Notes under the pieces: model-generated
Told to the model about the DNA's origin: nothing
Database searches by the model: none
What the model saw: the letters and a program-made list of their open reading frames with translations, nothing else
Source of the DNA: an uncultured Bacteroidaceae bacterium
GTDB taxonomy: Bacteria > CAIWAD01
Reading direction: 5' to 3'
DNA: 64,000 nt
Assembly: GCA_964568855.1 (NCBI GenBank)
Contig: CAZMSD010000015.1
Location: 15,458-79,457 of the forward strand
Made by a program: the position numbers and the translations under genes
Part shown: piece after piece, positions 8,625 to 49,952 of the stretch
How positions within the stretch are numbered: the stretch's first letter is position 1
Layout: every line of letters begins with the position of its first letter

Positions 8625-8627
8625 CGC

Positions 8628-14431: not shown

Positions 14432-15305
14432 CGCTTCCACCTGTATCACCGGAATCTTTGAGCTTGTCGATGAAGCGCAGCCACAGGGCCGTATCGCGGT
14501 AACCGCGGGGTCGCAGGTCCTCGAAGGCGCCGCGGGCCTCGGCGTAACGGCCCGTGCGCGCCAGGGCGACGGCCCGCAGGTAGCGCTCGTCGCGCCCCCG
14601 GGGAGGCCGCCGGGTGAACTCGAGCAGCAGCCGGGACCAGGCACCGGCCGCACCCAGCGCTTCGAGGTCGCCGGTATCCAGATCGCCGACCGCCGTCCGG
14701 TATGCCTCGCAGATGTCGTTCGTCCGATCGGGATGCCTCAGCAGCAGGCGAACCAGGTCCCGATGATCCGGATCGGCTCCCGGGCGCCTGAGCAGCGCCA
14801 GGCAGGCCTCCGCGCCGCCGGCCCTCAGGGCCAGGTCCAGGCCTTCGCGGGGCAGCGAGGCGAAGCGCTCGAAGATGCTGTCGGGCGCCGTTTCCGGCGA
14901 CCTGCCCGTCTCCTCGGCTGCGGCCGCCAGGGCCCGCACCCAGCATTCGGCCATCGCGCGGCCGCCTCCCAGAGCGCGGTCCAGCAATCGGTAGATCGAA
15001 TCCCGTTCCGCCGGCGGGCGGGCGTCCGCCCAGCGGCAGAGATCCCGCCGCCAATCCGCCGGCAACCGGCCTTCCAGGGTTTCGGCCGCCGCCCGCAGGT
15101 CGCCGTCCTGCCAGCGCAGCCAGGCCAGCTGTCGCAATTCCTCGCTCGAGGGCCGGCCGCCGGCGGCGCGCAGCGATTCGAGCTGCTGCTCCAGCGCCTC
15201 TCTCGCGCGGGTCGTTTCCCCGGCGATCAGCAGGTCGCCCGGCGAGGGAGTCAGGTCGACGCAGGCGACGGTCCCTGCCAGGACAATCGGAACCAGCGCC
15301 CGCAT
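14424..15305 (-). CDS. alpha-helical (TPR-like) lipoprotein or secreted protein
   Basis: Signal/lipobox MRALVPIVLAGTVACVD. Ala/Arg/Leu-rich helices. 8-nt overlap with the adhesin gene start. Confidence 0.5.
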   Translation of the reverse strand: MRALVPIVLAGTVACVDLTPSPGDLLIAGETTRAREALEQQLESLRAAGGRPSSEELRQLAWLRWQDGDLRAAAETLEGRLPADWRRDLCRWADARPPAERDSIYRLLDRALGGGRAMAECWVRALAAAAEETGRSPETAPDSIFERFASLPREGLDLALRAGGAEACLALLRRPGADPDHRDLVRLLLRHPDRTNDICEAYRTAVGDLDTGDLEALGAAGAWSRLLLEFTRRPPRGRDERYLRAVALARTGRYAEARGAFEDLRPRGYRDTALWLRFIDKLKDSGDTGGSDG

Positions 15306-15345: not shown

Positions 15346-17262
15346 TCAATCCTTGAATACCCTGAAGTTACCGTTTCGCTCCGTGCTTCCCCGCCCGTCC
15401 AGGTATTCAAGAAAAGGTACGGAAAATCGACGCGCCGCCCCGTCCAGGGCCTTGCCCGCCTCGCTTACGGTGAAGCCATGTTCAGAATTATCGGACAGGC
15501 TCTTCAAGGTATTGAGCGCGCGTTTGAAGACGCCGCGGCTGAGGTGGATTTCGGGCGTGACCTGAACCACGCTGCCTTCGTTGCGGCACAAGGCCAGGAG
15601 GCGCTTGACCTCCGCCGTGCTCAGGTCGCGGCGGCTCGCGAGCTCGGCCGGGCGGGGAGCGCTGTAGGCGGCCTTCTCGAGCTCCGTCACCAGGCGGCGC
15701 ATCTGTTCGCGCAGTTCCTCGGGTACGCGCACTTCGTGCTCCCGAAGCGAGACGACTCCACCGTCGCGGGTCAGCGCGCCTGAGCCTTCCAGGGTTCCCA
15801 GCAGGTGCTCGAAGAAGGCCTGATCCCCGGAGGGCTGTCCCGTTCGCGGAAAGAGTTCGCTCCGCAACTGGGCGGAGGGCATCCCCGGCAGCTCGGGCCG
15901 CGATTCGTGATACTCCCTCAACTTATCGAGCAGCTTCGCCGAGATCCGCTCATGGATCTTCGTCGAGATGTAGACGGTGCGGCTGCCCAGCTCCAAGGCT
16001 GCCGCCGATCCCTCGTCCGCCAGCTTGCGGAGGGGTTGTCGCAGCTCCTCGAAGGTGGCGCCCGTCTTCTCCTGCAGCGCCTCCGCCGTCCACAGCGGGT
16101 CCTGCAGGCTGTGGAGGATTCCGTGCATTTGCCGGGCGAGGTCCTCGTCCGCGATGCGCTGCAGGCGCTCCACCACCTGCCCGGATCCCTGGCGGTGCTT
16201 GCGCGGCGTCGGATCGACCACTTCGCCGCCGCCGATGGTGACCTGGGGCGAATAGCGGCGTATCACGAACCGGTCGCCGGCCAGGGCGGTCACGAGGCTT
16301 TCCAGCCGCAGCTGCGCGTAGCAGGATTCGCCTCCCGCGAGTTCTTCACGGCCCAGCAGCACGGCCCTGGCCATCAGTTCGGAAGTTCCGACGTGTACCC
16401 GCAGGCGATCACGGTTGCGCAGGCGGAACGCCCCGGGCAGGATCTCCAGCCGGGCGTCGAGCATGTAACTCGGCTTCAGCACCCCGGGGCTCGCCAAGCA
16501 GTCGCCGCGCCGGACCTGGCCCAGCCCCACGCCCTGCAGGTTGACCGCCGCCCTGTCCCCCTGTTGCACCAGCTCTACCGCGTGCCCGTGGATCTGCAGG
16601 TTCCTGATCCGGGTGCGAGTGCCTCCGGGCAGGATTTCCACCTCGTCGCCGGCGGCGGCGGATCCGGAGATCACCGTGCCGGTCACCACGGTTCCATAGC
16701 CCTTGATGTTGAAAGCGCGGTCGACGAATTCGCGGAAGATACCGCGCCTGTCCGGCGGCGGCAGTTCCTCCAGCCGCGCGCGCAGGATTTCTCCAAGCTC
16801 GGGAATCCCCCTGCCGCTCAGCGAATCCACGCAGACAATCGGGCTGGATTCGAGAAAACTACCCGTGACGAAACTGCTCAACTCTTCGCGCACAAGCTCG
16901 AGCCATTCCTCCTCCACCGTGTCGACCTTGGTTATCACGGCCATGCCGTGTCGCACGCCCAGGAGGCGCAGGATGTCGAAGTGCTCGCGCGTCTGGGGCA
17001 TGATCCCGTCGTCGGCGGCCACCACCAGCAGGACGAAGTCCACGGTGGCCGCGCCGGTGACCATGTTCTTGATGAAGCGCTCGTGCCCGGGGACGTCGAT
17101 GACGGTGATGTTCTCGCCAAGGAAGGCGAATCCGAGGTCGATGGTAATCTGGCGCTGCTGTTCTTCCTTGAGCGTGTCGGTGTCCACGCCTGTGAGAGCC
17201 TTTACCAGGGCCGTCTTGCCGTGGTCGATGTGGCCGGCGGTTCCGATTACGATGTGAGACAT
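15346..17262 (-). CDS. selB: selenocysteine-specific translation elongation factor SelB
   Basis: N-terminus [25 protein letters not shown] with G1 to G4 GTPase motifs. 638 aa, with the C-terminal winged-helix extension typical of SelB. Confidence 0.9.
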
Positions 17263-17273
17263 TCCGTCCCCGT

Positions 17274-18053
17274 TCAGAGCTTGCGTTCCTTGCGGATCGC
17301 GGACCAGGCGTGCTGCAGGTTCTTGAACTTCTCTTCAGCGAAGGAGCGGTACTCGTCTCCAAGATGCGCGACGCGGTCGGGGTGGAATTTCTTGGCCAGT
17401 TCGCGGTAGGCCCTCTTCAGTTCCTCGTCGGCTGCCGAGGGATTCATGCCCAGAACCTCGTAGTGACTGCTCGCGGCGGCGGGCCCGCCGGCAGGCCGGC
17501 TGCTGCCGAAGACGGCCCGCAGGTCCTCTTCGCTGATCCCCAGCCTGCGGGCGATTTCCTGGACCGCGCGCGTCTCCTCCGGGTGCAGCTCGCCGTCGGC
17601 CATGGCGATGGTGAACAGGAAATGAAGGATTTCAAGCCGGTCGTGATACCCCATGTGGGCCGTGATCTGAGCGCAGATCTCGGAGACGTCGAACTCGCGC
17701 TCCAGGATCTGCCTGAGCATCTTGAGCATGTCCTGAGCGTTGTCCTGGCCAAATTGCGCCACCAGGAATTCTCGGACCTTGCGGACCTCGGAGGAAAGCA
17801 CGCGCCGGTCGGCGCGTATCACGTGCGCGCACAGCGCCAGCAGGGCCACCGCGAAGTTGCCGCCCAGATTCCGCTGGAAGCTTTCCTGGTGGCTGTTTAC
17901 GTATTCCGCGTTGCGGTAGTAGTTGTAGGGAATCTCCCGCGCTCGGCCGCGCTGGTCGAAGATGTTGCCGATCATTCCGCCGAAGAGCGCTCCCAGCGGG
18001 CCGAACATCGCCCACCCCAGACCGCCGCCGATCAGTTTGCCTGCCCAGGCCAT
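17274..18053 (-). CDS. djlA: co-chaperone DjlA (TerB domain plus C-terminal J domain)
   Basis: N-terminal Gly-rich transmembrane segment, a TerB-like central region, and a C-terminal J domain (YEVLGMNPSAADEELKRAYRELAKKFHPDR). Confidence 0.8.
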   Translation of the reverse strand: MAWAGKLIGGGLGWAMFGPLGALFGGMIGNIFDQRGRAREIPYNYYRNAEYVNSHQESFQRNLGGNFAVALLALCAHVIRADRRVLSSEVRKVREFLVAQFGQDNAQDMLKMLRQILEREFDVSEICAQITAHMGYHDRLEILHFLFTIAMADGELHPEETRAVQEIARRLGISEEDLRAVFGSSRPAGGPAAASSHYEVLGMNPSAADEELKRAYRELAKKFHPDRVAHLGDEYRSFAEEKFKNLQHAWSAIRKERKL

Positions 18054-18062
18054 TCCAGCTCC

Positions 18063-19577
18063 TTATCGTTTTGCAGCGTCGCCCAGGACCGCCGTCAGCG
18101 CGGCGGCCAGATCGGGCAGCTCGGATTCGTCCACCGTCTTCAGGTCCACCAGCAGAGCCTCGTCCCTGACCCTGCAAACCACCGCGGGTCGGCCCAGGCG
18201 CAACCGGCGGTGCAGCTGCTCGGCGGATCCGCCCGCGGCGCCGATGCGCAGCGCGGCGCTGGGCAGGTCCTGCTCCGGCAGCGCCCCTGATCCCGTCCGG
18301 GCTACGCTGTCGACCAGCCGGAGATTCTCCTCTTCCAGGCGATCCTCCAGCAACTCCGCCAGGCGGCGGGCGCGCTTTCTGACCGCCTCGCGCGGTTCCG
18401 TCAACATCCGGAACGCGGGCAGCTCGGCGGGCCGATCGCCCGCCTCGAGGTAGACCTGGAGCACCGCCTCGAGGGCGGCCAGGGACATCTTGTCGCAGCG
18501 CAACGCGCGCATCATGGGATTGCGGGCCAGTCGACGGACGAGTTCCCGCCGGCCGAGTACGATGCCGGCCTGCGGGCCGCCAAGCAGCTTGTCGCCGCTG
18601 AAACTGACCAGGTCGGCCCCCGCCTCGAGCGAGGCCGCGACCAGCGGCTCGGGTCGCTCGACGCCCGGGAAGTCAACCAGGGCGCCGCTGCCCAGGTCGT
18701 CCAGCAGCAGGACGCCGCGCTCGCGGGACAGCTCCGCCAACTCGGCCAACGGCACCTCGCTGGTGAAGCCGACGATCTTGAAGTTCGAGCTGTGCACCCT
18801 CAGCAGCGCCGCCGTCCCGGGCGTCAGGGCTTCCGCGTAGTCCCGCAGGTGGGTCCGGTTTGTAGTTCCCACCTCGACCAGTCGGCACCCGCTGCGGCGG
18901 ACCACGTCGGGGATCCTGAAGCCGCCGCCGATCTCCACCTGCTGCCCGCGTGATACAACGACACCGCGCCGGTTGCAGAGCGTGTTGAGCATCAGGTAGA
19001 CGGCCGCGGCGTTGTTGTTGCAGACCAGCGCGTCCTCCGCGCCGGTGAGGACCTTCAGCAGACCGCGGACCCGCTCTTCCCGTCGCCCGCGCCGTCCGGA
19101 ATCCAGCTCGTATTCCAGGTCGCAATAGCCGGCCAGGACCTCGTTCAACCTCGTGCGGACCCGCTCCGGCAGCGCGGCCCGACCGAGTCCCGTGTGCAGC
19201 ACGACGCCGGAGGCATTGATCACGCGCCTCATCCGCCCCGCCGACAGCGCCTCGACCCGCGAGCAGACCAGGGCCGCCAGCGCCTCGACGGCGGCCGGCC
19301 TGCGCACGCGCCCCGCCAGGATCCTCTCCCGCCGGCCCTCGATCACGTCGCGAACGATCCGTACGAGGTAGGACCGCGCGATGCGCTGCTCGAGCCCGCG
19401 CAGCCGCGGATGCCCCAGCAGTCGATCGACTCCGGGCAGGGAACGCAGCAGTTCCTCCCGGCCCGCGGACTCGTCCCGGTTGACGGACCCGACACTTGTA
19501 TCACTGTTGCACATGCTGCGATTGGTTCTGTCTGTTGAACGGCGGCGATGTAAGTTCTGGGCCCGTTTCCCGAGCAC
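18063..19577 (-). CDS. selA: L-seryl-tRNA(Sec) selenium transferase SelA
   Basis: PLP-enzyme motifs NNNAAAVYL and FSGDKLLGGPQAG. About 500 aa. Confidence 0.9.
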   Translation of the reverse strand: MLGKRAQNLHRRRSTDRTNRSMCNSDTSVGSVNRDESAGREELLRSLPGVDRLLGHPRLRGLEQRIARSYLVRIVRDVIEGRRERILAGRVRRPAAVEALAALVCSRVEALSAGRMRRVINASGVVLHTGLGRAALPERVRTRLNEVLAGYCDLEYELDSGRRGRREERVRGLLKVLTGAEDALVCNNNAAAVYLMLNTLCNRRGVVVSRGQQVEIGGGFRIPDVVRRSGCRLVEVGTTNRTHLRDYAEALTPGTAALLRVHSSNFKIVGFTSEVPLAELAELSRERGVLLLDDLGSGALVDFPGVERPEPLVAASLEAGADLVSFSGDKLLGGPQAGIVLGRRELVRRLARNPMMRALRCDKMSLAALEAVLQVYLEAGDRPAELPAFRMLTEPREAVRKRARRLAELLEDRLEEENLRLVDSVARTGSGALPEQDLPSAALRIGAAGGSAEQLHRRLRLGRPAVVCRVRDEALLVDLKTVDESELPDLAAALTAVLGDAAKR

Positions 19578-19601: not shown

Positions 19602-21167
19602 TCAGAACTGCGTTCTGAGCGCGGCCTTTACGCCGTTGAAGGGCGGCACGTTGCGGCAGTTGCCGCTGCTGCACACCAGTCCGCCGCGCTGGCGTCCGGC
19701 GAACAGCGTGATGCTGTTCCTCAGATAATCTCCCAGGCGGAAATCCCAGCGCAGTTCCGTGGAGAACATCCAGTCGCGACCCGCGCCGCTGTGCTCTTCG
19801 TAATCGGCGGTCAGGTTGAGCGAGAAGTCCCGGACCGGAAACACGTCCGTCCAGACCAGGGCCGCCAGCCCCGTGCGGACCGGATTGCGGTCCCGCTTGA
19901 ACATCACTTCGCTGCTCCATTCCATGGAACGCAGCAGGGGAACCGGTGTCGACAGGGAGGCGCCCAGGCCGCCGCGCCGCGTCCACTCCCCCGGGTCGGG
20001 CTTGGCTTCCTCGGCGTAGGCCGCGGCGAGGACCAGGTGGCGGTCGTGCTCCCCCGCGTAGTCCCAGCCGGCCGTGTATTCCTGGTAGGCCGCGTAGCGC
20101 TGCTCCATCAGGGGCAGGTATGCGCCGTCGTCGATGTGCGAAGCCCAGGCGGCGCTGAAGCTCAACTCCGGGCCGTCCTCGAAATACCGTGATACATCCA
20201 GCTGCAGCCCAACCTCGTCCTCGAAGGTGTTCTGCCTGCGCTTGCGGGCGATCAGGCGCGTGGGAATCTCCCGCTGTACGATCGGCGGATTGTTGAAGCG
20301 CGGATCACCGCCGGCAAAGCGGTAATACTTGTGCTCGAGCTGCAGGAACCAGCCGAAGAGCGGTCCGCCGAGTGTGGAGTAGGTGGCCAGCCCGCCGGCG
20401 CCGGCGTTCCGGTCGAGTTGGTCGCGCTGGTGCTGGTCAAGGTGGTTGACCGAGAACTCCACCGGTCCGGCGGCTCCCGCTACGTAGATCTCGCGATTGT
20501 CGAGTTCCAGGCGGTCCGGGGTGTCCGACTGCACCACCGCGTCCGCGCTGACCCATGACGCGCCCATCGTGACGGGCGCGGTATATACTTCGGCGTTGGC
20601 CGCCTGCAGGTTCCCGTAGTAGTCCGAGCTGCCCGCCAGAGCTTTCAGGCCCCAGGACTCGCGCAGCACTTCGACGAAAAGGCCGTCGCAGGAATTGTCC
20701 CAGGTGGTGGGCGTCTCCACCCGCGCGGGATCCAGCAGCAGCGGATTGTCGAGGGTCTCGTCGCGGTAGAGCGAGAGCGCCAGGCCGTTGCCGAAGGTGG
20801 TCCAGGCGTTGCCCAGTCGAAGCGTCACGGGCCCCCGCCATTCCAGGTAGCGCCGGATCACGGCGTCACGGCTGACTCTCAGGGCCTCGTCCGTGCGGTC
20901 GGCTGGAAACTCGGCCGGGTGATACACGGCGGCGGCGACGTTCAGCACGATGTCGTTCCAGGCCGCGTCCACGTCGAGCACGTTCTCGCGGTACACCACG
21001 TGCGCGTCGTCCCCGAACTGGGTGCGCACGCTGCCCGTTCCCAGGTTGGCCGTGTTCACGCCCGACAGGCTGATGCCTGTCGCGTCTTCCTCGGCCGGCG
21101 CCAGGGCGGCGATCAGCAGGAGCGCCGTGAGACACACGAGCCAGGACCTTGATTCGGCCGGGCTCAC
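19602..21167 (-). CDS. outer-membrane beta-barrel protein
   Basis: Signal peptide MSPAESRSWLVCLTALLLIAALAPA. Alternating amphipathic strands. Ends in a C-terminal Phe (ALRTQF) with a CSSGNC motif. Confidence 0.6.
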   Translation of the reverse strand: MSPAESRSWLVCLTALLLIAALAPAEEDATGISLSGVNTANLGTGSVRTQFGDDAHVVYRENVLDVDAAWNDIVLNVAAAVYHPAEFPADRTDEALRVSRDAVIRRYLEWRGPVTLRLGNAWTTFGNGLALSLYRDETLDNPLLLDPARVETPTTWDNSCDGLFVEVLRESWGLKALAGSSDYYGNLQAANAEVYTAPVTMGASWVSADAVVQSDTPDRLELDNREIYVAGAAGPVEFSVNHLDQHQRDQLDRNAGAGGLATYSTLGGPLFGWFLQLEHKYYRFAGGDPRFNNPPIVQREIPTRLIARKRRQNTFEDEVGLQLDVSRYFEDGPELSFSAAWASHIDDGAYLPLMEQRYAAYQEYTAGWDYAGEHDRHLVLAAAYAEEAKPDPGEWTRRGGLGASLSTPVPLLRSMEWSSEVMFKRDRNPVRTGLAALVWTDVFPVRDFSLNLTADYEEHSGAGRDWMFSTELRWDFRLGDYLRNSITLFAGRQRGGLVCSSGNCRNVPPFNGVKAALRTQF

Positions 21168-21757
21168 CCTTCCTGCTCCGGCGATTCATGCTCGGGCCCG
21201 GGCGGCTCCTCCTCCACGGGCGGGTCCGCCGCTTCTTCCGGCGGCGCGTCCTGCGGGCCGGGCGCGGCGGCCAGCATGCCGGCGAGTTTCTGCTCGAGCT
21301 CCTTTTCGTCCCCGGGACGGTATCCGCTGTGCGCGTACAGCACTTCACCGTTCCGGCCAACCACCATGGTGTAGGGGGGATTGGAGCCCTTGAGCTGTTT
21401 CATGATCCTGCCGTTGGTATCCAGCAGCACCGGGCAGTCCCAGCCCTTGCCCCTCGCATAGGGTTTGACACGCTTCTGGCTGCGCGGGCTGTCCACGGAC
21501 ACCAGGACGAGCTGCAGGTCCCGTTCGCTGAGGCGTTCGACGATCTTGAACAGGTGCGGGATCTCCTTCTTGCAGGGTTCGCAGTAGGTGGCCCAGAAGC
21601 TGATCAGCACCGGGCCCTTGGCGCAGAGATCCGCCAGCTCCACCATTTTGCCGTCGAGCGCACGGAGCTTGAAGTCGGCCTTCTCGGCGACCGCGCCTCC
21701 GGCCAGGATCAGACTCAGCGTGATACAGAACAGGACTCGTGTCACTCGATCGGCCAT
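21164..21757 (-). CDS. thioredoxin-like thiol-disulfide oxidoreductase (TlpA/ResA family)
   Basis: The WATYCEPCKKEIP CxxC motif lies in a thioredoxin-fold context. N-terminal signal or membrane anchor. Confidence 0.8.
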   Translation of the reverse strand: MADRVTRVLFCITLSLILAGGAVAEKADFKLRALDGKMVELADLCAKGPVLISFWATYCEPCKKEIPHLFKIVERLSERDLQLVLVSVDSPRSQKRVKPYARGKGWDCPVLLDTNGRIMKQLKGSNPPYTMVVGRNGEVLYAHSGYRPGDEKELEQKLAGMLAAAPGPQDAPPEEAADPPVEEEPPGPEHESPEQEG

Positions 21758-21773
21758 AGATTACATTTCCGCC

Positions 21774-22889
21774 TTATCTCAGCAGCAGCATTTTTCCGGA
21801 ACGCTCGTACCAGGGGGTTTCCACTGTGTAGTAATAGGCGCCCGAGGGCAGGCCCGAAGCATCGAAGAGCTGCTCGTGCCGGCCGGCGGCGCGCGGCGCC
21901 GTTTCCGCCGGCAGGGCCACGGTCCTGCCGCCCAGGTCCAGGACCCTGATGGTCACGGGTCCGGGAGCGGGCATTAGGTAGGGTATGTGCGTCACGGGAT
22001 TGAAAGGATTGGGCCAGTTGTCCCGCAGCTCGAAATCCGCGGCAAGCGACGGTATGGCGCTCTCCGTGGTGGCGACGACGGCCAGTTCCTGGCTCAGCGT
22101 GTCCTCGGGACAGAACTCGCGGACGAAGGCCACTTCCAGCAGGGCGCTGCCGTGGCTGCGGGTGATGACTTCCACGTCGTAGTCGCACTCGGTCTCACTG
22201 ACCAGCAGGTCCTCGCCGGAGACCATGTCGCCGAAGAAAATCGGCAGGCAGAAGATGTCGCCGCGGCAGATCTGGTAGGTCCAGTCCTCGGGCCCCTCGA
22301 GCAGCCGCAGGATCAGGGTGATGGTCTCGTCCTGGAAGCCGGGGTTGGAGGCGTGATACCAGAAGTAGGCGCTGATTCCCTCGGGCGGGAACTCGTCGGC
22401 CTCGACGCTCACCTCGGTGCTGTCGCTGAGCGTGAATTCGCTGCACTGGGCCCGGGCGACGACGGCCAGTTCCTGGCTCAGCGTGTCCTCGGGACAGAAC
22501 TCGCGGACGAAGGCCACTTCCAGCAGGGCGCTGCCGTGGCTGCGGGTGATGACTTCCACGTCGTAGTCGCACTCGGTCTCACTGACCAGCAGGTCCTCGC
22601 CGGAGACCATGTCGCCGAAGAAAATCGGCAGGCAGAAGATGTCGCCGCGGCAGATCTGGTAGGTCCAGTCCTCGGGCCCCTCGAGCAGCCGCAGGATCAG
22701 GGTGATGGTCTCGTCCTGGAAGCCGGGGTTGGAGGCGTGATACCAGAAGTAGGCGCTGATTCCCTCGGGCGGGAACTCGTCGGCCTCGACGCTCACCTCG
22801 GTGCTGTCGCTGAGCGTGAATTCGCTGCACTGGGCCCGGGCGCCGGCGACCCAGGCCAGGGCGAGGATGAGCAGGATCCTGATCTTCAT
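21774..22889 (-). CDS. Cys-rich secreted protein with T9SS type-A C-terminal domain; contains a perfect tandem duplication of a 128-aa module
   Basis: Signal peptide MKIRILLILALAWVAGARA. Two identical 128-aa repeats (AQCSEFTLSDSTEVSVEADEF...ELAVVA). C-terminal PNPFNP...YYYTVE...KMLLLR Por sorting domain. Confidence 0.8.
   Translation of the reverse strand: MKIRILLILALAWVAGARAQCSEFTLSDSTEVSVEADEFPPEGISAYFWYHASNPGFQDETITLILRLLEGPEDWTYQICRGDIFCLPIFFGDMVSGEDLLVSETECDYDVEVITRSHGSALLEVAFVREFCPEDTLSQELAVVARAQCSEFTLSDSTEVSVEADEFPPEGISAYFWYHASNPGFQDETITLILRLLEGPEDWTYQICRGDIFCLPIFFGDMVSGEDLLVSETECDYDVEVITRSHGSALLEVAFVREFCPEDTLSQELAVVATTESAIPSLAADFELRDNWPNPFNPVTHIPYLMPAPGPVTIRVLDLGGRTVALPAETAPRAAGRHEQLFDASGLPSGAYYYTVETPWYERSGKMLLLR
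22073..22840. repeat. perfect 384-bp direct tandem duplication (2 copies) inside the T9SS cargo gene
   Basis: Nucleotides 22073-22456 are identical to 22457-22840 as read. The period is an in-frame multiple of 3. Confidence 0.85.
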
Positions 22890-22954
22890 CGTTCCTCCAG
22901 TACTGTTGGATGCCCCGCAGGTTCCGCTCCCGCCGGCACCGCGACGTCGCGAGC

Positions 22955-24217
22955 CTATTCGGCCAGCAGTTCCTCGACGATCGAAACCAGCGTCTCCTGC
23001 TCGAGCTGCCCGTGCACGGAGTGGATCACGCCGCGCCGGTCGAGGATGAAGTTCGTCGGGAAGACGCTCACGCCCGCAAGTTGCGCGACGGGGGGATCCA
23101 CCGAGTCCTCCAGGAAGCGGAAATCGTACCCGGGATTTTGCGCGATCCATTCATCCAGCACGCTCGGATCGCCGGTAATGTCCGCCTGCAGCGGGTCCAG
23201 GGCCAGGATACGGAAGCCTTCTCCGTGATACTCATCGAGCACCTCCTGCAGCATGGGAATCTCCTCCAGGCAGGGAGCGCAGGTGGTGAACCAGAAATTC
23301 ACCAGGACCACCCGGCCCCGGAACTGGCGCAGCGACAATTCCTGCGCGCCCGCCTCAGGCAGGGTGAAATCCTCGAAGAGACCGCCGGCCTGGTAACTCA
23401 GCTCCCCCGGTTCCCAGGCGAAGGACAGATCCGTGTCACAGATGCTGTCGAATAGAAACGCCGCCTCGCTCGAGACGACATGGGCCGGCAGGTAGGCGGA
23501 TACGAAGTGGGCGCCCATCAGGTTGATCAGGGCGGCGGCGTCGAGCAGGCCGGTGGCCTCCTCGTCGAGGATCAGCTCGGCCTCCGCGTCGCCGAGATCG
23601 ATGCTAAGCTGCGCGTCGTCGACCTCGATCAGCATGGCCGCCTGCTGAGGATCCTCGGCGAAGGAGAAAGTCGTGTCGCCGCGAACGCACTCCGCGTTGC
23701 CCACCGCGAGTTCATTTTCGACCAGGGGCGTAAACTGAACAAGGGCCGGAGTGAGGGTGGGCAGCGCCTCGCCGTTGAGCAGCAAGGGCAGGCCATCCAG
23801 CGTATCGCCGCCGGCCAGCATGGAAATCACGGTCATGGTGAACAGGGAATCCAGCCGCGGCAGGACCTCGATGGTCAGCGAGTCGACGTCCTGCTCATAG
23901 AAGAGGAAAGGCTGCTCGCCCGGTTCGAAATAGTTGTCAGTGTCGAAGGGCAGGAAACGCAGCACGTAGCTGCTGTCCAGGGGCAGCTCGTCGATCAGGT
24001 TCCACTGAGCGCCGTCCGGAGGGTAGAACCCTGCCGGCTCCCCGTTGAGATAGATCTGTCCATCCACGGGGCTCGAATCGTAGGCATCGATGGCGCGGAC
24101 ATAGAGCGCGCCGAGTTGTTCGACTTCGACCAGCTTGTCGATGCTGCAACCGGCGACCAGCATCAGGACCGAGAGGATCGACAGCGCGCTTTTGCATGTG
24201 AAACGAGGCATGGTCAA
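22955..24217 (-). CDS. lipoprotein with a C-terminal TlpA-like thioredoxin domain
   Basis: Lipobox LMLVAGCS. C-terminal FWFTTCAPCLEEIP CxxC thioredoxin fold. 420 aa. Confidence 0.75.
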   Translation of the reverse strand: MTMPRFTCKSALSILSVLMLVAGCSIDKLVEVEQLGALYVRAIDAYDSSPVDGQIYLNGEPAGFYPPDGAQWNLIDELPLDSSYVLRFLPFDTDNYFEPGEQPFLFYEQDVDSLTIEVLPRLDSLFTMTVISMLAGGDTLDGLPLLLNGEALPTLTPALVQFTPLVENELAVGNAECVRGDTTFSFAEDPQQAAMLIEVDDAQLSIDLGDAEAELILDEEATGLLDAAALINLMGAHFVSAYLPAHVVSSEAAFLFDSICDTDLSFAWEPGELSYQAGGLFEDFTLPEAGAQELSLRQFRGRVVLVNFWFTTCAPCLEEIPMLQEVLDEYHGEGFRILALDPLQADITGDPSVLDEWIAQNPGYDFRFLEDSVDPPVAQLAGVSVFPTNFILDRRGVIHSVHGQLEQETLVSIVEELLAE

Positions 24218-24327: not shown

Positions 24328-24360
24328 AGAGAAAAGCCCCGACCACACAAGGCCGGGGCC
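24328..24360 (-). terminator. Rho-independent terminator downstream of the lipoprotein gene
   Basis: On the minus strand, a GCCCCGGCC...GGTCGGGGC hairpin is followed by TTTTCTCTC. Confidence 0.6.
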
Positions 24361-24399: not shown

Positions 24400-25236
24400 T
24401 TACTGGCTGATTTCGCCGGTCAGCGGATCCACGTTCCAGGTGTCTCCGTCGTCGAAGACCATCACGCCGCCGCCGTCGCCGAAGGTGATCGTCACTTCAC
24501 GCTCGATGGTGATGTTGCCGCGATGCGCCAGGTAGTAGATGTGGATCGTCCCCTCGATGGGAATCCGGCGCCCGTCGCGGCGGATCACGCGCAGGTCGGT
24601 TCCCGTGAGATCCAGGCTGAAGTCGTAGGGAATCGTCCGCTGGTTGCGGTAGACTTCACCTTCGCCGGCACGATGGTGCTCGCCGTTGACCATGGCGCCC
24701 GGCACCTCGTCGTGCAGCTCGCGGATCTCCCAGTCACCGGTGCCCGCCTTCTCGCCGCTGTGCCGGCGGTTCCAGCTGCTGCCGCTGAATTCGCGGGTGA
24801 AATCAACGGCCTTGACGCTGCCGTCGCCGGGAGGAACCACGATGCAGCCGCCTTCTTCATCCATGAAGTGCACGGTCCGCGTTTCCTCCCACTCGAAGCC
24901 CGACCAGGGGCCTTCGAAGGCATGATACCAATTCAGGGTCCAGGTGCAGGTGGTGCTGTCGAAGACCGCGTCGTCCGTTCTGTCGGACTTGTCCAGCCCG
25001 TCGGGCGTGTAGCTGTCGAAGCCTCCGCCGTCCACGTGCGTGTCGATGGTGTATTCGATGGCCTCCAGCGCTCCGCCCGACTCCAGCGCGATGCTCTCGC
25101 CGATGATGGATGCCGCTTCCTCGTTCTGTTCCGCCCGGGTCACAGTGTCCTGGTCGCCGAGTGAGTTGCTTTCCTGGCTGCAGCCGATCATCAGTCCCAC
25201 GCCGAGCAGGATAGCGGGAATCATTGCGCGTGTCAT
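24400..25236 (-). CDS. hypothetical lipoprotein
   Basis: Lipobox MIPAILLGVGLMIGCSQ. 278 aa. Carries its own AT-rich upstream region and its own terminator. Confidence 0.6.
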   Translation of the reverse strand: MTRAMIPAILLGVGLMIGCSQESNSLGDQDTVTRAEQNEEAASIIGESIALESGGALEAIEYTIDTHVDGGGFDSYTPDGLDKSDRTDDAVFDSTTCTWTLNWYHAFEGPWSGFEWEETRTVHFMDEEGGCIVVPPGDGSVKAVDFTREFSGSSWNRRHSGEKAGTGDWEIRELHDEVPGAMVNGEHHRAGEGEVYRNQRTIPYDFSLDLTGTDLRVIRRDGRRIPIEGTIHIYYLAHRGNITIEREVTITFGDGGGVMVFDDGDTWNVDPLTGEISQ

Positions 25237-25399
25237 CTTGAGCCTCCTTGGTTGTCCATCAATAGATACACGACTGGAACGGAGTCATCGGAAGATTATT
25301 GCTCGGGCTTGATCGAGATCGGAAGAAAGTCCCTCGGCCAGCAGGCTGGAAGCAGTATTTGAGAGTTGCGGGGGATGCGCAGGTTAAGGAATCGCTCGC

Positions 25400-25858
25400 T
25401 CAGGCTGATTCCCTGATGCTTGGCGGGATGCTGCTGGTGAAACCCAGTTCGTCGGCCACTTTCGTCAGCTGTTCCATCAACAGACCCTGTTCCGTCTCTG
25501 AACTGTCCTCCACCAGCCGGCGGATGCGATCGATTTCGTCGGCCATCATTTCCTGCAGGAAGCTATCGCCCTCGGAAGTGAGCTTGAGCAGGCTGTAACG
25601 CCGGTCTGATCCTTCATGGCGGCTGAGGAAGCCCCGCTGAACCAGGTGCTGCACCAGCGGGCTGATGCGACCCTTCTGCAGGCCGGTGCAATCTGTCAGG
25701 GTGCTCACACAAGTGAAAGGTGAATAGCTGGTCAGGATCAGGATTTTAAGCGCGGTGGCCGGCAGGTGTTCCTGCTTTGCCAGTCCGGTAATCCTGGAGG
25801 AAACCCCACAGGTCAGCTTGAGGACCTGTTCCAGTACTTTCCATTCACGGCTGCTCAT
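25400..25858 (-). CDS. MarR-family transcriptional regulator
   Basis: 152 aa with winged-helix core ...SPFTCVSTLTDCTGLQKGRISPLVQHLVQRGFLSRHEGSDRRYSLLKLTSEG. AT-rich promoter region upstream. Confidence 0.8.
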   Translation of the reverse strand: MSSREWKVLEQVLKLTCGVSSRITGLAKQEHLPATALKILILTSYSPFTCVSTLTDCTGLQKGRISPLVQHLVQRGFLSRHEGSDRRYSLLKLTSEGDSFLQEMMADEIDRIRRLVEDSSETEQGLLMEQLTKVADELGFTSSIPPSIRESA

Positions 25859-26280: not shown

Positions 26281-26463
26281 CCAGCTTTCCTCGTCTCCTC
26301 AGCCCTGAAAAACCAGGATGTTAGTGCAAATTATTGCACTACGCTACTCTGCCCATTGGCTGAATACGCCCGATTCTGGGCAATACTGCCAGTTCTTGCA
26401 CAGGTCTGGCTCGACAGCTCGATTCGACGCGTCAACCACCCCTTGCTCCCTCGGAAAGAGAAC

Positions 26464-26493
26464 GAGTCCCCCGATCGGTTGACCGGGGGACTC
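26464..26493 (-). terminator. Rho-independent terminator after T9SS cargo paralog C
   Basis: A gagtccccc...gggggactc hairpin; on the minus strand it is followed by a T-rich tract. Confidence 0.55.
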
Positions 26494-26524
26494 GGCGTGT
26501 TCGTCCGGATCCTGATCGTTGAAC

Positions 26525-28171
26525 CTACTTCACCAGCACCATTTTCCTCGTATCGGTCAAGCCGCCGGTCTCAAGCGTGTAGAAATAGACTCCGGCGGAC
26601 AACATGGATGCCTCGAATACTACGCTGTGAGCGCCGTGCTCCATCATGCCGTTCACCAGGACGGCCACTTCCGCACCGGTCACATTATAGACGCGCAGGC
26701 TGACCATGCCCGTCTCCGGCACGTGATACGCGATGGTGGTCGTCGGATTGAAGGGATTCGGATAATTCTGTACCAGCTCGAAGGCGGCGGTCTGCTCATC
26801 CGCGAAAACCGCGTCGCAGCAATCGCCCACCAGGCTGACCGCGTATGATCCGTAATCGCAGGCGTAACCGTTCACGCGCAGGTAGTAGCTGCCGGCGTCC
26901 AGCGCCACGTCGTCCAGGTAGGAGGTGAAACCCGTGCACCCCTGCGCCCATCCATCGTCGTTGTAGGCGATGTAAGTGCCCTCATCCCAGGCTGCGTCGC
27001 ATGGCGGCAGATCGTAGAGCCAGAGCTTGGTGTCGAAATCCGCCTGGTTGCAGGTGTAGATGTCCAGCACGCAGGGTTCGTCGACGCTGAAGCAGTACCA
27101 GTCCTCGGCGCACTCCTCGAGCAGCTCGCCGGAATAGTCGCCGCAGGCATCGTCCAGTTCCAGGTCGCAGACCCAGTCCTCGCAGGGATCGCCCTGTCCG
27201 CAGTCCCCCGACACGTCGACCCGCCAGGTGGTCTCGTCGGGTACGTGGTCGAAGCCGTCGGGCGCAATGATGAACATGTACTCGCCCGCATCCAACCCCA
27301 CCGTAAGGGAGAGTTCCTCGCTGCCGGCGAGGGTCTCGATCACATCAAGATCGTCGCAGTCGCCGGCGGCGATCCAGATGCGATAGTCGGCGATGCAGGA
27401 GAAGGCGTCGAAAGTAACCGTGCCGTCCGCGTCCAGCGTGAACAGGAACCAGTCCAGGTCCCGGGTGTTCAGGCCGGTGTCATCGTTGAGGAAGGTGAAC
27501 AGGGTGCCGCAGTAGGCCTCGCCGCACTCCATTTCGCCGTAGGTCTCCGGGTCGAAATTGCAGCCGCCGTTGGTCAGGTCCTCGTAGGGCGGGATGTTGC
27601 CGTAGTAGGGTTCATTCTCCGGGACGGCGTCCGTGCAGTCGGGGTCCTCGCAGGGCTCGTCGCCGCCACAGGATTCCGCGGTCACCCGGACGTGGCCGCC
27701 CACGTCGTTGTAGTCGGAGATCCAGATGTAGTACTCCTCGCCGCCGCTGAAGGTGAAATGTTCGCAGCCGAAGGAGGCATACCAGGCCGGCCACTGGCCC
27801 CCGCCGCCGTTACAGGGCTCGGTTCGGTCCCAGCCGGCCAGCCAGGAGAGGTTGGTGCAGGGGCCGAGGTAGATGTCCACGTTGGTATCGCCGTCCACCA
27901 CGCTTTCCTCGTGGCAGGTGGAGAACTCGAGCTGCGAATCCGTTGCGGGCGTGTAGCGCAGCCAGGCCCCCTCGGAGGTGATGTCGTATTCCGCTTCGAA
28001 GGGAAGCGTCAGGTCCACCGCCGACTCGCAGGTGGCGAAGCGCATGGCCGGGGCGCTGTGGGGCTGCCCGTCCTTGGTGACGGGCGGGCCTACCACGGCG
28101 AGGTCGGCGAAACCGGCGCCGGACAGCAGGCCCGTCAGCAGCGCCGCACTAAGAATCTTGATCCTGAACAT
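26525..28171 (-). CDS. Cys-rich secreted protein with T9SS type-A CTD (paralog C)
   Basis: Signal peptide MFRIKILSAALLTGLLSGAGFA. Many Cys and Asp residues. C-terminal QNYPNPFNPTTTIAYHVP...GVYFYTLE...KMVLVK. Confidence 0.8.
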   Translation of the reverse strand: MFRIKILSAALLTGLLSGAGFADLAVVGPPVTKDGQPHSAPAMRFATCESAVDLTLPFEAEYDITSEGAWLRYTPATDSQLEFSTCHEESVVDGDTNVDIYLGPCTNLSWLAGWDRTEPCNGGGGQWPAWYASFGCEHFTFSGGEEYYIWISDYNDVGGHVRVTAESCGGDEPCEDPDCTDAVPENEPYYGNIPPYEDLTNGGCNFDPETYGEMECGEAYCGTLFTFLNDDTGLNTRDLDWFLFTLDADGTVTFDAFSCIADYRIWIAAGDCDDLDVIETLAGSEELSLTVGLDAGEYMFIIAPDGFDHVPDETTWRVDVSGDCGQGDPCEDWVCDLELDDACGDYSGELLEECAEDWYCFSVDEPCVLDIYTCNQADFDTKLWLYDLPPCDAAWDEGTYIAYNDDGWAQGCTGFTSYLDDVALDAGSYYLRVNGYACDYGSYAVSLVGDCCDAVFADEQTAAFELVQNYPNPFNPTTTIAYHVPETGMVSLRVYNVTGAEVAVLVNGMMEHGAHSVVFEASMLSAGVYFYTLETGGLTDTRKMVLVK

Positions 28172-28500
28172 GGGGATCCTCCGTATTTCCATTCTGTGTC
28201 TGGTCGTTTCGTGATCCGATTCTGCCGGTTCCTCGTTGCGCAATTGTAATGCCAGTCACATCCGCGGGGGGCGGTTGTCTGCATGGTCAGCGTTTCCGAA
28301 GCTGAAATACTGGGATTACGAAGTGTGGAATTCAGAAAGGTATGGATTTCGGGCAGGACGCCGAATCAATCAAGCGGTAGTTCGGAAGGGCCAAAGTGGT
28401 TCATTTGGCTATTGACCGTGGAGATAACCCTCCAGCGGGCATGGTCGGCACCCCGATCGGTGAATAACACAACAAAAGGGCCCCGACCGCTTGGATGGGT

Positions 28501-28535
28501 AGAAAAAGCCCCCACCTGCAGGCGCAAGTGGGGGC
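28501..28535 (-). terminator. Rho-independent terminator after paralog B
   Basis: Minus strand reads GCCCCCACTTGCGCCTGCAGGTGGGGGC followed by TTTTTCT. Confidence 0.7.
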
Positions 28536-28590
28536 ATCGCAATCGCAACGTATGACGTTCTGCTTATTCAGCAGATGGGCAAGCCGTGGC

Positions 28591-29787: not shown

Positions 29788-30025
29788 AGTCCTGAGTTAG
29801 GGGTATATCTGGATGTCTTTTCGTCAGACCATGGGAAACGCGCTGATGGTGCTGCGCATCAGCGAAGTTGACTGTTGTTCAAAGCTGTTTCCAGGCTTCA
29901 GGACAAGCTGCTAACCGCAAAATGCGCGCCATTCTCGGTTGAAAGCAGCATAACATTGAAATTGTTGTTTTTAATCGAATTCCAGCCTATCGCAGGAGTA
30001 CTGAATGTCCCTTCAGTTTGTAAGC

Positions 30026-30059
30026 TGTCGGAACTTGAACATGATTCGCCCGATATTGG
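30026..30059 (+). promoter_or_regulatory. conserved box TGTCGGAACTTGAACA-N6-GCCCGATATTGG, 239 nt upstream of paralog B
   Basis: A 16-nt core identical to the box at 32195, with the same downstream GCCCGATA element. Confidence 0.5.
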
Positions 30060-30230
30060 ACTCAATAACTCCACCGACGCGAAGCTGGGATCGATCGCGG
30101 CGCCGCATGCTGCAAGCAGCTGGAAGCTGATCGACCGGTCGATGCCACCTGCGCCCAAGTCGCCGGATGTCGTTACATGAAAATGCTCCTGGTTCACGTT
30201 CACACGACCGGCGCCCGACCGCTGGCATTT

Positions 30231-30271
30231 GGTTGAAAAAGAGGCCCCCGACCGCCACAGCGGCCGGGGGC
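30231..30271 (-). terminator. Rho-independent terminator after paralog A
   Basis: Minus strand reads GCCCCCGGCCGCTGTGGCGGTCGGGGGCC followed by TCTTTTTCAA. Confidence 0.7.
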
Positions 30272-30325
30272 AAGGGTGATGCTGTCGGTGCGCAGTACGC
30301 GGACAGCGGTCCTAAACGAAGCAGC

Positions 30326-47384: not shown

Positions 47385-47414
47385 TACAAGATCGGCGGCC
47401 GACGGGCCGGCGGA

Positions 47415-48539: not shown

Positions 48540-48709
48540 GCGCAAAGCGGCGGATTCGAAATTCAGCAGATCTGAACCATGTGTCACAGGACATGAACCG
48601 GACGGCCCGGTTCCTGAATCTACGGATCCCAGGTCGTTTTCCTTGGACCGGGAGGGCACAATACACTTATTTCCGAGGTTTTTCGTAGCCTGTACGGGTT
48701 CCAAATCCA

Positions 48710-49906: not shown

Positions 49907-49952
49907 CAGGAGTGAACCGTTAGCAGGAAGATCCCGTAAATCCGAAACATCT

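What the first reader, a model, noticed from the sequence alone, without database searches (positions are those of the whole stretch)
21164..24217. Cys-rich T9SS cargo bracketed by two TlpA-like thiol-disulfide oxidoreductases
The duplicated Cys-rich T9SS substrate (21774-22889) lies between two genes that encode CxxC thioredoxin-fold proteins. One is a lipoprotein with an extra N-terminal domain (22955-24217, CAPC). The other is membrane-anchored (21164-21757, CEPC). A beta-barrel OMP follows. This suggests a dedicated periplasmic redox relay that forms or isomerises disulfides in cargo before T9SS export. The same may apply to the three Cys-rich paralogs at 26525-31996.
Basis: inference. Interest (0 to 1): 0.55.

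Follow-up and report, generated by a model that had tools for sequence, protein, structure and literature searches.

The report
Thioredoxin-type reductase paired with outer-membrane barrel
The two thioredoxin-like genes around the small secreted protein are real. However, they belong to a widespread, undescribed gene cassette whose constant core is a periplasmic TlpA-type reductase coupled to a large outer-membrane barrel with an invariant cysteine pair, and the secreted "cargo" is a lineage-specific add-on.

Summary
On the minus strand lie a lipoprotein with a C-terminal TlpA-type domain (CAPC), a small type IX secretion (T9SS) tail protein, a ResA-like TlpA (CEPCKKE), and a DUF6029 beta-barrel that overlaps it by 4 nt. 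selA, a djlA-like gene and selB follow with no terminator, so this is probably one operon.

The cargo-centred reading is only partly supported:
- In 71 of 74 related loci, a TlpA gene sits directly upstream of the DUF6029 barrel. These fall into 15 clusters at 50% TlpA identity. Most lack the cargo.
- All 127 full-length barrel representatives carry a C-x4-C motif near the C-terminus. In the model it lies in the last outward-facing loop of a ~24-strand barrel.
- The cargo and the long TlpA occur only in Delongbacteria-like lineages.
- The cargo has four invariant Cys. The 384-nt duplication is a strain polymorphism.
- The three Cys-rich paralogs are separate, variable transcription units.
- No ccm or res genes are linked.

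The second thioredoxin-fold lipoprotein is often a selenoprotein (UxxC) in relatives.

The most likely function is a reductive envelope thiol relay centred on the barrel. That mechanism is inferred, not shown.

The parts
22955..24217 (-). Long TlpA: a lipoprotein with a ~270-aa beta-rich N-terminal region and a C-terminal TlpA-type thioredoxin domain (CAPC at 23270-23281). The more likely start is the ATG at 24211.
   Evidence: Pfam AhpC-TSA 2.1e-13 and Redoxin 4.5e-12 over residues 276-405. Lipobox and acidic stretch after Cys24 are conserved in 13 orthologues. The orthologous N-region gives a weak PEGA hit. Orthologues in L019 and L105/L106 read TGA at the first Cys.
21774..22889 (-). Small secreted protein: signal peptide, two identical 128-aa Ig-like modules, and a T9SS type-A C-terminal tail (the 'cargo').
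   Evidence: Alignments A3 and A5 show invariant Gln-Cys at the mature N-terminus and invariant C65, C71 and C117. The AlphaFold model of one module plus tail has pLDDT 82.8 and shows two beta-sandwiches. PDB fold matches are only generic Ig-like folds, including the PorA N-domain 6kjk.
22071..22842 (.). Exact tandem duplication (2 x 384 nt plus 4 nt) inside the cargo gene. It is polymorphic in the population.
   Evidence: The gene is single-copy (243 aa) in L001, L002, L005, L007 and L008. The junction is also present in L003. Contigs L004 and L006 end inside the repeat.
21164..21757 (-). Short TlpA: a ResA-like periplasmic thiol-disulfide oxidoreductase (CEPC at 21572-21583) with the subfamily motif SGYRPGDE and an acidic, Pro-rich tail.
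   Evidence: Pfam. Best solved relatives are 2m72_A (1e-23) and ResA 1st9 (3e-16), with an identical CEPCKKE motif. The GY[KR]PGDE motif recurs in the barrel-linked TlpAs.
19602..21167 (-). DUF6029-family outer-membrane beta-barrel of about 24 strands. Its start overlaps the short TlpA stop codon by 4 nt.
   Evidence: Pfam DUF6029 37.2 bits. AlphaFold pLDDT 81.5, pTM 0.76. Foldseek top hits are the 24-strand ushers FimD and PapC, TonB-dependent transporters and MtrB, with TM about 0.45-0.5. No relative of solved structure by sequence.
19656..19673 (-). Codons for the invariant C499-S-S-G-N-C504 hairpin of the barrel.
   Evidence: Invariant in alignments A1 and A2. C-x4-C is present in 127 of 127 full-length family representatives. 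The model places it on a mini-hairpin (496-500 and 503-507) between the last two barrel strands. By the alternation of short turns and long loops this is the last extracellular loop (inference).
15346..19577 (-). selA (18063-19577), a djlA-like TerB+DnaJ gene (17274-18053) and selB (15346-17262). They are co-directional, 9-24 nt apart, and probably share the operon.
   Evidence: No terminator-like site lies between 24217 and 15346 on this strand, except one inside a coding region. The same order is kept in all Delongbacteria-like loci.
24335..24354 (-). Terminator-like hairpin after the upstream lipoprotein gene. It is the probable upstream boundary of the cassette's transcription unit.

Best explanation
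The locus is one copy of a conserved cell-envelope thiol-redox cassette.

Shown:
- The invariant core is a ResA/TlpA-type periplasmic oxidoreductase, translationally coupled to a ~24-strand DUF6029 outer-membrane barrel.
- Every member of that barrel family has a C-x4-C mini-hairpin just before the last strand.
- A second thioredoxin-fold lipoprotein is recruited next to this core again and again. In the Delongbacteria-like lineages it is the long TlpA. Elsewhere it is an Omp28-like protein. Both types switch between Cys and selenocysteine at the first active-site position.
- In the Delongbacteria-like lineages only, a small Ig-like T9SS-tail protein with four invariant Cys lies between the two oxidoreductases, and selA, a djlA-like gene and selB follow in what looks like the same operon.

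Inferred:
- The short TlpA is a reductant, like ResA. It would be recharged from the cytoplasm by a membrane partner that is not in this window.
- It would pass reducing equivalents to outer-membrane clients: the barrel's Cys hairpin, the lipoprotein oxidoreductase, and in this lineage the small T9SS protein.
- The flow would therefore be reductive or isomerising, and centred on the barrel rather than on the cargo.
- The cargo is a lineage-specific client or partner. Its duplication is a recent strain variant.
For: - Core pairing: a TlpA-like ORF lies directly upstream of the barrel, on the same strand, in 71 of 74 loci with enough upstream sequence. These TlpAs form 65, 27 and 15 clusters at 95%, 70% and 50% identity. 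The median distance from TlpA stop to barrel start is -4 nt. The pairing also holds in 'Deltaproteobacteria' genome bins, where no cargo, long-TlpA, selA or selB homologue was detected.
- Barrel Cys pair: invariant in A1 and A2 and present in 127 of 127 full-length representatives from an exhaustive profile search, which gave 554 family representatives.
- Barrel fold.
- Reductase character: CEPCKKE is identical to ResA.
- Second thioredoxin-fold lipoprotein: the long TlpA is present in all Delongbacteria-like loci. An Omp28-like gene lies directly upstream of the TlpA-barrel pair in 19 loci. It reads TGA in 15 distinct versions and Cys in 2. A covarying hairpin begins 13 nt after the TGA. The long TlpA reads TGA in L019 and in L105/L106.
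- A possible electron source in other lineages: NapH-type and GltD-like genes lie just downstream of the barrel in about 30 loci.
- Operon structure in the window.
- Cargo restricted to one clade and always single-module elsewhere.
Against: - No experiment or expression data were available. The direction of electron flow is inferred from motif similarity alone.
- By the model's topology the Cys hairpin faces outward. A periplasmic TlpA could reach it only before the barrel is inserted, or through the pore.
- No CcdA, DsbD or NapH-type recharging partner lies in this window.
- The metagenome loci were selected with a pattern containing the Cys motif, so they cannot themselves show that the motif is conserved. 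address that separately.
- Within the Delongbacteria-like clade, synteny extends well beyond the block. Conserved order there could therefore reflect common descent rather than function.
Confidence: 0.5

Rival explanations
1. The two TlpA-like proteins form a dedicated periplasmic relay that makes or isomerises the disulfides of the small T9SS protein, and perhaps of the three Cys-rich paralogs, before export. The barrel would be a bystander.
For: The cargo always lies between the two oxidoreductase genes in Delongbacteria-like loci, down to 31% barrel identity. It has four invariant Cys. Two of them (C61, C67) lie on adjacent strands of the model, so the spacing is compatible with two disulfides. 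That pairing is inference, because no coordinates were available.
Against: The TlpA-barrel pair is conserved in about 55 further loci without this cargo. The ResA-type motif points to a reductant, not an oxidant. The three paralogs have their own terminator-like hairpins, are separated from the block by other genes, and are absent in L009/L013, L019 and L020, which keep the block. The barrel overlaps the short TlpA gene and has its own invariant Cys pair.
Confidence: 0.2
2. A barrel-biogenesis factor only. The short TlpA exists solely to keep the barrel's C-x4-C pair in the right state during periplasmic transit, as DsbA and DsbC do for LptD. The long TlpA, the cargo and the selenium genes would be unrelated neighbours.
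For: The pairing is near-universal and translationally coupled. The Cys pair is invariant. In 'Deltaproteobacteria'-type loci the pair stands alone.
Against: A second thioredoxin-fold lipoprotein has been recruited next to the pair repeatedly and independently, from two different families. NapH-type and GltD-like redox genes follow the barrel in about 30 loci. That suggests a sustained electron flow rather than a one-off folding step.
Confidence: 0.15
3. Handling of selenium or other chalcogens. The barrel's Cys pair and the TlpA proteins would take up or process selenium (for example as a selenotrisulfide) to feed the adjacent selA/selB machinery.
For: The block abuts selA, a TerB-domain djlA-like gene and selB in all Delongbacteria-like loci. 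The partner lipoproteins are frequently selenoproteins.
Against: No selA or selB hits appear in the other roughly 55 loci with the pair. Selenoprotein genes are often encoded near selAB for reasons unrelated to selenium uptake. This is general knowledge, not a tool result. No selenium-binding or transport family was detected.
Confidence: 0.08
4. Generic cytochrome c maturation: ResA or CcmG homologues that merely happen to lie here.
For: The best named hits by sequence are ResA, StoA, TlpA and DsbE. The CEPC motif matches ResA.
Against: Scores are far below the family cut-offs (ResA 72 against 170; DsbE 39 against 123). No ResB, ResC, Ccm or CcdA genes are in the window or recurrent in related loci. 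The constant neighbour is the barrel.
Confidence: 0.02

Closest known systems
ResA / TlpA / CcmG family of extracytoplasmic thiol-disulfide reductases (cd02966)
   Same: Thioredoxin fold with a W-x-x-x-C-x-x-C motif, exported to the envelope. The short TlpA has the ResA motif CEPCKKE. The family works by dedicated reduction of particular clients. This last point is established knowledge of the family, not a tool result.
   Different: Scores are below every NCBIfam cut-off for named members. The genes are not linked to cytochrome or copper-oxidase assembly genes. They are linked instead to an outer-membrane barrel. The subfamily has its own GY[KR]PGDE motif and, in some lineages, Cys-rich C-terminal tails.
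DUF6029 (PF19494), an uncharacterised beta-barrel family. One paper suggests a polysaccharide-export role, based on HHpred similarity to the Wzi barrel (PMC9603273).
   Same: Length of about 500-550 aa and the C-terminal G-G-L-x-C-x-x-G-x-C-R motif, which matches the end of the Pfam profile.
   Different: Only the last ~36 residues align to the Pfam model. The model here has about 24 strands, not 18, and most resembles ushers, TonB-dependent transporters and MtrB. The constant partner is a TlpA, not a polysaccharide-export gene. Polysaccharide genes do exist elsewhere in the window (43921-51368) but are not adjacent.
T9SS type-A cargo; small Ig-like T9SS proteins such as P. gingivalis PorA
   Same: Signal peptide, N-terminal Gln, an Ig-like domain and a C-terminal sorting domain. 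The model's N-domain superposes on the PorA N-domain 6kjk (TM 0.55 relative to the target).
   Different: There is no detectable sequence similarity to PorA, and the fold match is generic. The family is tiny: about 11 clusters in 5.8 billion proteins. It is always embedded between two TlpA genes.
Thioredoxin-fold selenoproteins: 'thiol-disulfide isomerase-like, cd02966, UxxC' (review PMC13188914) and the Omp28-related selenoprotein (NCBIfam NF045500)
   Same: Relatives of the long TlpA read U-P-[HF]-C. The Omp28-like neighbours in other lineages read U-x-x-C and are followed by a hairpin that looks like a selenocysteine insertion element.
   Different: The window's own protein is the Cys form (TGC). 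The Omp28-like genes score far below the NF045500 cut-off (22 against 200). The link of these selenoproteins to a TlpA-barrel pair was not found in the literature searched.
Porin-cytochrome conduits (MtrAB/MtrC). This is an analogy only.
   Same: A large plug-less outer-membrane barrel is encoded next to a periplasmic redox protein and a redox lipoprotein. MtrB appears among the fold matches.
   Different: There are no haems, the chemistry is thiol or selenol rather than electron hopping, and there is no sequence relationship. No complex has been shown.

Membership tests
TlpA/ResA-type thioredoxin-fold oxidoreductase (Pfam Redoxin / AhpC-TSA) | Domain score above the curated cut-off, with a C-x-x-C active site after a conserved Trp | tested here: met
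   Short TlpA: 69.8 and 60.2 bits (cut-offs 26 and 26.6), motif WATYCEPC. Long TlpA: 50.7 and 46.4 bits, motif WFTTCAPC.
TlpA/ResA-type thioredoxin-fold oxidoreductase | Export to the envelope via a signal peptide, membrane anchor or lipobox | tested here: met
   The long TlpA lipobox is conserved in 13 orthologues. The short TlpA has a hydrophobic N-terminus with an AxA-type end in its orthologues. This was read from the sequence; no predictor tool was available.
ResA / CcmG(DsbE) cytochrome c maturation reductases | Score above the NCBIfam cut-off for ResA (170) or DsbE (123) | tested here: not met
   Short TlpA scores 72.1 and 39.2 bits. Long TlpA scores 61.9 and 28.8 bits.
ResA / CcmG(DsbE) cytochrome c maturation reductases | Genomic linkage to resBC, ccm or ccdA genes | tested here: not met
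   None found among the window's genes. None appears among the recurrent neighbour families of about 90 loci. The rest of the genome could not be examined.
T9SS type-A cargo | C-terminal sorting domain (PF18962 / TIGR04183) above the cut-off | tested here: inconclusive
   The window protein scores 21.2 against 27 and 17.4 against 23. Orthologues carry recorded PF18962 hits. The PNPFNP and GxY motifs are invariant, and the tail models as a beta-sandwich.
T9SS type-A cargo | N-terminal Sec signal peptide, and T9SS machinery present in the genome | not testable with these tools
   The signal peptide is evident from the sequence (A-R-A then Q-C). The window also holds several other proteins with a T9SS tail. 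The machinery genes are not in the window.
DUF6029 (PF19494) | Pfam score above the gathering cut-off | tested here: met
   37.2 bits against 27, but only profile positions 503-538 align. More distant relatives score 41-65 bits.
DUF6029 (PF19494) | Outer-membrane beta-barrel architecture with an aromatic C-terminal residue | tested here: met
   The AlphaFold model is a barrel and the protein ends in Phe. 93 of 127 representatives end in an aromatic residue.
Bacterial selenoprotein (thioredoxin-fold, UxxC) | In-frame TGA at the redox position, followed by a selenocysteine-insertion hairpin | tested here: not met
   The window's long TlpA has TGC at 23279-23281. The feature is met in relatives L019 and L105/L106. 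It is also met in the Omp28-like neighbours of other loci.

The most novel reading that the evidence does not exclude
The cassette encodes a thiol (or selenol)-disulfide relay that crosses the outer membrane. The periplasmic short TlpA, perhaps using its flexible C-terminal tail (Cys-rich in some lineages), would deliver reducing equivalents through the wide 24-strand barrel. They would reach the barrel's outward-facing C-x4-C hairpin. From there they would pass to a surface-exposed thioredoxin-fold lipoprotein (Cys or Sec form) or to a T9SS-anchored partner. The cell would thereby gain redox chemistry at its surface. This would be a protein-thiol counterpart of the porin-cytochrome conduits.
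Probability: 0.15. Interest if true: 0.9.

Novelty: new variant of a known kind. Interest (0 to 1): 0.6.

Why it matters
TlpA-type reductases are known to serve inner-membrane or periplasmic clients such as cytochromes c and copper centres. A subfamily that is almost always translationally coupled to an outer-membrane barrel carrying an invariant cysteine pair points to a different kind of client.

That subfamily is also repeatedly joined by a lipoprotein oxidoreductase that switches between cysteine and selenocysteine. Together these features suggest envelope redox chemistry at or across the outer membrane that has not been described.

The finding gives DUF6029, a family of 554 cluster representatives with no known role, a concrete and testable partner and a candidate active site. 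It also offers a context for several thioredoxin-fold selenoproteins of unknown function.

For this particular window, it corrects a cargo-centred reading and shows that the striking gene duplication is only a strain polymorphism.

Tried and rejected
- Cytochrome-maturation reading: rejected. Scores are below cut-offs and there are no ccm, res or ccdA neighbours.
- Duplication as a pure assembly artefact: not favoured, because a second sample carries the junction. It is also not fixed, since five assemblies are single-copy.
The 11-sequence alignment A5 was used instead.
- Cys-Cys distances in the models could not be measured, because no coordinates are returned. Disulfide pairing is therefore inferred from strand positions only.
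- PDB sequence searches with the barrel profile and with the long TlpA N-region: no hits. Pfam finds nothing in the window's long TlpA N-region.
- Search of the window for NapH-type, GltD-like or Omp28-like homologues: none.
- tRNA-Sec in the window: no tRNA genes at all.
- Single-sequence folding of the L019 hairpin is not significant on its own (z = -1.4). The case for selenocysteine rests on the Cys alignment, on conservation of the hairpin in L105, and on the covarying hairpin in the Omp28-like genes.
- I recalled that PDB 2m72 is P. gingivalis PG_2175, lying beside Omp28 (PG2173). The papers searched did not confirm this, so it remains a lead only.
- Literature searches for DUF6029, for TlpA with T9SS, and for Omp28 with selenoprotein found no description of this cassette.

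Full report
**What is in the window.** The region is about 65% G+C, and the relevant genes all lie on the minus strand. In transcription order they are:
- a lipoprotein gene (24400-25236), followed by a terminator-like hairpin (24354-24335);
- the long TlpA (24217/24211-22955);
- the 'cargo' (22889-21774);
- the short TlpA (21757-21164);
- a 521-aa outer-membrane protein (21167-19602);
- selA (19577-18063), a djlA-like TerB+DnaJ gene (18053-17274) and selB (17262-15346).

The gaps between these genes are 65, 16, -4, 24, 9 and 11 nt. No terminator-like site lies between 24217 and 15346 on this strand, apart from one inside a coding region. I therefore treat long TlpA through selB as one probable operon; this is inference.

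Both TlpA-like proteins pass the Pfam Redoxin and AhpC-TSA cut-offs. Both fall far below the NCBIfam cut-offs for ResA, StoA, TlpA and DsbE. The short one carries WATYCEPCKKE, identical to the ResA active-site stretch in 1st9. Its best solved relative is 2m72_A, E = 1e-23. The long one is a lipoprotein with CAPC. Its ~270-aa N-terminal region has no Pfam or PDB sequence match. An orthologue's N-region gives a weak PEGA hit.

**The cargo and its duplication.** The 371-aa protein has three parts: a signal peptide ending A-R-A before Q-C, two 128-aa modules that are identical at the nucleotide level (period 384, exact over 22071-22842), and a T9SS-type tail. The tail scores just under the family cut-offs here.

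Eight contigs from other assemblies encode a short TlpA identical in protein sequence and are 99.5-100% identical to the window at the DNA level. In five of them the gene is 243 aa, with a single module. L003, from another sample, contains the module-to-module junction. Two contigs end inside the repeat. The duplication is therefore a real but unfixed strain variant.

The family is tiny. About 11 clusters turned up in 5.8 billion proteins, all 231-252 aa with a single module. Alignment shows an invariant N-terminal Gln-Cys and three further invariant Cys. The fifth Cys in each of this window's modules is not conserved.

AlphaFold gives two beta-sandwiches: the N-domain with pLDDT about 83-95, and the tail. 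PDB matches are generic Ig-like folds, including the PorA N-domain. C61 and C67 sit on adjacent hairpin strands. C2 and C113 lie at the N-terminus and at the start of the last strand. Two disulfides are therefore plausible, but they were not measured because no coordinates are returned.

**The outer-membrane protein.** It hits DUF6029 only through its last 36 residues. Twenty-three homologues at 44-53% identity were found. In the 21-sequence alignment built from them, G495-G-L-V-C-S-S-G-N-C-R is invariant or nearly so.

The AlphaFold model (pLDDT 81.5, pTM 0.76) is a large barrel. If residues 135-140 are read as part of a loop, the strand list gives 24 strands. Turns of 2-5 residues then alternate with longer loops, which is the classical periplasmic-turn and extracellular-loop pattern. 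This places the C499/C504 mini-hairpin in the last extracellular loop (inference).

Foldseek's best matches are the 24-strand ushers FimD and PapC, then TonB-dependent transporters, with MtrB also listed. TM-scores are about 0.45-0.5. An exhaustive profile search finds 554 representatives at 50% clustering. All 127 listed full-length ones carry C-x4-C within the last 40 residues.

**Neighbourhood conservation.** Homologous barrels in Candidatus Delongbacteria (OY760505.1, a 3.7-Mb chromosome) and related genome bins keep the order long TlpA, cargo, short TlpA, barrel, selA, djlA-like, selB. The order also holds in a sister clade where the barrel is only 31% identical (L019, L020, L103-L107).

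The upstream MarR-like gene, the lipoprotein gene and the Cys-rich T9SS paralogs are variable. They are absent in L009/L013, L019 and L020.

A metagenome scan seeded with the barrel alignment returned 80 further loci. Of the 74 loci in total with enough upstream sequence, 71 have a TlpA-like ORF directly upstream on the same strand. One of the three exceptions has a TlpA that matched the long-TlpA query instead. These TlpAs fall into 15 clusters at 50% identity and share a GY[KR]PGDE motif. The median stop-to-start distance is -4 nt. 'Deltaproteobacteria' bins (L021, L022) have only the pair.

The barrel motif was used to select these loci, but the neighbour was not. The adjacency is therefore an unbiased observation.

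**A recurrent second thioredoxin-fold lipoprotein, often a selenoprotein.** In about 19 low-GC loci, the gene just upstream of the TlpA-barrel pair is a lipoprotein weakly related to Omp28 and to NCBIfam's 'Omp28-related selenoprotein'. It reads ...AELFTEDG-TGA-x-x-C... in 15 distinct versions and has Cys at that position in 2. Thirteen nucleotides after the TGA lies a 7-bp hairpin, with compensatory changes in 4 of its 7 pairs.

Other loci carry Cys-form Omp28-like genes, or extra TlpA-like lipoprotein genes, beside the pair.

In the Delongbacteria-like clade the analogous position is held by the long TlpA. Its orthologues in L019 and L105/L106 read FWFYN-TGA-P-[HF]-C, followed by a conserved hairpin. 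L020, L103 and this window have Cys. A selenoprotein ancestry of the long TlpA is a reasonable explanation for the block's fixed position next to selA and selB; this is inference.

In about 30 loci the barrel is followed by a NapH/MauN-type membrane ferredoxin gene. In eight of these a GltD-like flavoprotein gene follows it. These are a possible electron source. The window has no such genes.

**Interpretation.** The refutation test it proposed (ccm or res linkage) comes out negative, so that test does not refute it.

However, the evidence moves the centre of the system from the cargo to the TlpA-barrel pair. The cargo and the long TlpA are a clade-specific elaboration. The three Cys-rich paralogs (4.5-5.6% Cys) are separate, terminator-bounded and dispensable units.

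The ResA-like motif argues for a reductive or isomerising role rather than disulfide formation. My best model is a reductive envelope relay serving outer-membrane clients, with confidence 0.5. Only the gene architecture, conservation, motifs and predicted folds are shown. Electron flow, client identity and localisation are inferred.

The rivals are:
- a cargo-dedicated relay (0.2);
- a pure barrel-biogenesis factor (0.15);
- selenium or other chalcogen handling (0.08);
- cytochrome maturation (0.02).

The most novel reading not excluded is a thiol/selenol relay across the outer membrane through the barrel (probability 0.15).

**Novelty.** TlpA-type reductases, T9SS cargo, DUF6029 and thioredoxin-fold selenoproteins are each known. 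I found no description of their conserved association. I rate this a new variant of a known kind, with interest 0.6.

Noticed in passing
window 15346-19577; also L009-L020, L023-L025, L103-L107: selA and selB are always separated by a djlA-like gene encoding a TM segment, a TerB domain and a DnaJ domain. The trio directly follows the barrel gene in every Delongbacteria-like locus. A TerB/J-domain protein embedded in the selenocysteine operon is unusual and unexplained.
   Followed up: partly
L019 8383-8385; L105/L106 5665-5667: Orthologues of the long TlpA read TGA at the first active-site Cys (FWFYN-U-P-[HF]-C), followed by a conserved hairpin (CUGUAUCUCGG-AGUUG-CCGGG...AUACAG). Sister sequences L020 and L103 have Cys. 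The family switches between Sec and Cys forms.
   Followed up: yes
L055-L096 (for example L084 5340-5342); 19 loci in all: An Omp28-like thioredoxin-fold lipoprotein gene lies directly upstream of the TlpA-barrel pair. It has an in-frame TGA (UxxC) in 15 distinct versions, against 2 Cys forms. A covarying 7-bp hairpin begins 13 nt downstream of the TGA. It scores far below NCBIfam's Omp28-related selenoprotein cut-off, so it may be an undescribed subfamily.
   Followed up: yes
L036, L044, L061, L065, L075, L084 and others, at positions +1 and +2 after the barrel: In about 30 loci the barrel gene is followed by a NapH/MauN-type polyferredoxin membrane protein gene. In eight of these a GltD-like FAD/NAD(P) oxidoreductase gene with an Fe-S domain follows it. 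Together they could supply electrons to the periplasmic TlpA in place of CcdA or DsbD.
   Followed up: partly
L061, L083, L084, L087, L089, L090, L093, L095, L096 (C-termini of the barrel-linked TlpA): Several barrel-linked TlpAs end in short Cys-rich tails such as KKCQGDCKGKCHE or KSCKECGKCETGK. The window's protein instead has an acidic, Pro-rich tail. The role of these tails is unknown; they could bind metal or act as a relay arm.
   Followed up: no
window 26463-26494, 28508-28535, 30244-30271: Each of the three Cys-rich T9SS paralogs (26, 18 and 31 Cys) is followed by a strong GC-rich hairpin and a T-run. This marks them as separate monocistronic units. Their number varies from 0 to 3 among relatives.
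   Followed up: partly
window 22886-22830 and all cargo orthologues (A3): The signal peptide always ends A-x-A and is followed by an invariant Gln-Cys. This fits the Bacteroidetes 'Q-rule' of N-terminal pyroglutamate after signal peptidase I cleavage. That rule is recalled from the literature and was not tested here.
   Followed up: no
window 24400-25858; L010-L012, L014-L018, L023-L025: A 278-aa lipoprotein with no family match, and (except in L018) a MarR-like regulator, are conserved just upstream of the cassette in most Delongbacteria-like loci. Both are missing in the complete genome OY760505.1 and in the sister clade.
   Followed up: partly
window 23687-23689 and 23438-23440 (C177 and C260 of the long TlpA): Two extra Cys in the N-terminal region of the long TlpA are both present in 11 of the 13 aligned sequences, the window included. 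Both are absent in the two sister-clade sequences (L019, L020). This suggests a structural disulfide.
   Followed up: no
L021 6589-8147: In a 'Deltaproteobacteria' genome bin, the TlpA-barrel pair is preceded by a Cys-rich lipoprotein with PVDTT repeats. Its reading frame changes inside the repeats, which could be an assembly error or a real frameshift. Whether it is related to the module is unknown.
   Followed up: no
window 7429-14653 and 43921-51368: Other envelope genes in the window: ExbB- and ExbD-like genes; a 1436-aa protein with a weak CHU_C-type (type-B) T9SS tail; and, further away, a polysaccharide cluster (heparinase II/III-like, GT2, GT4, Wzy-like). The polysaccharide cluster bears on the published DUF6029-polysaccharide idea, but it is not adjacent to the barrel.
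   Followed up: no
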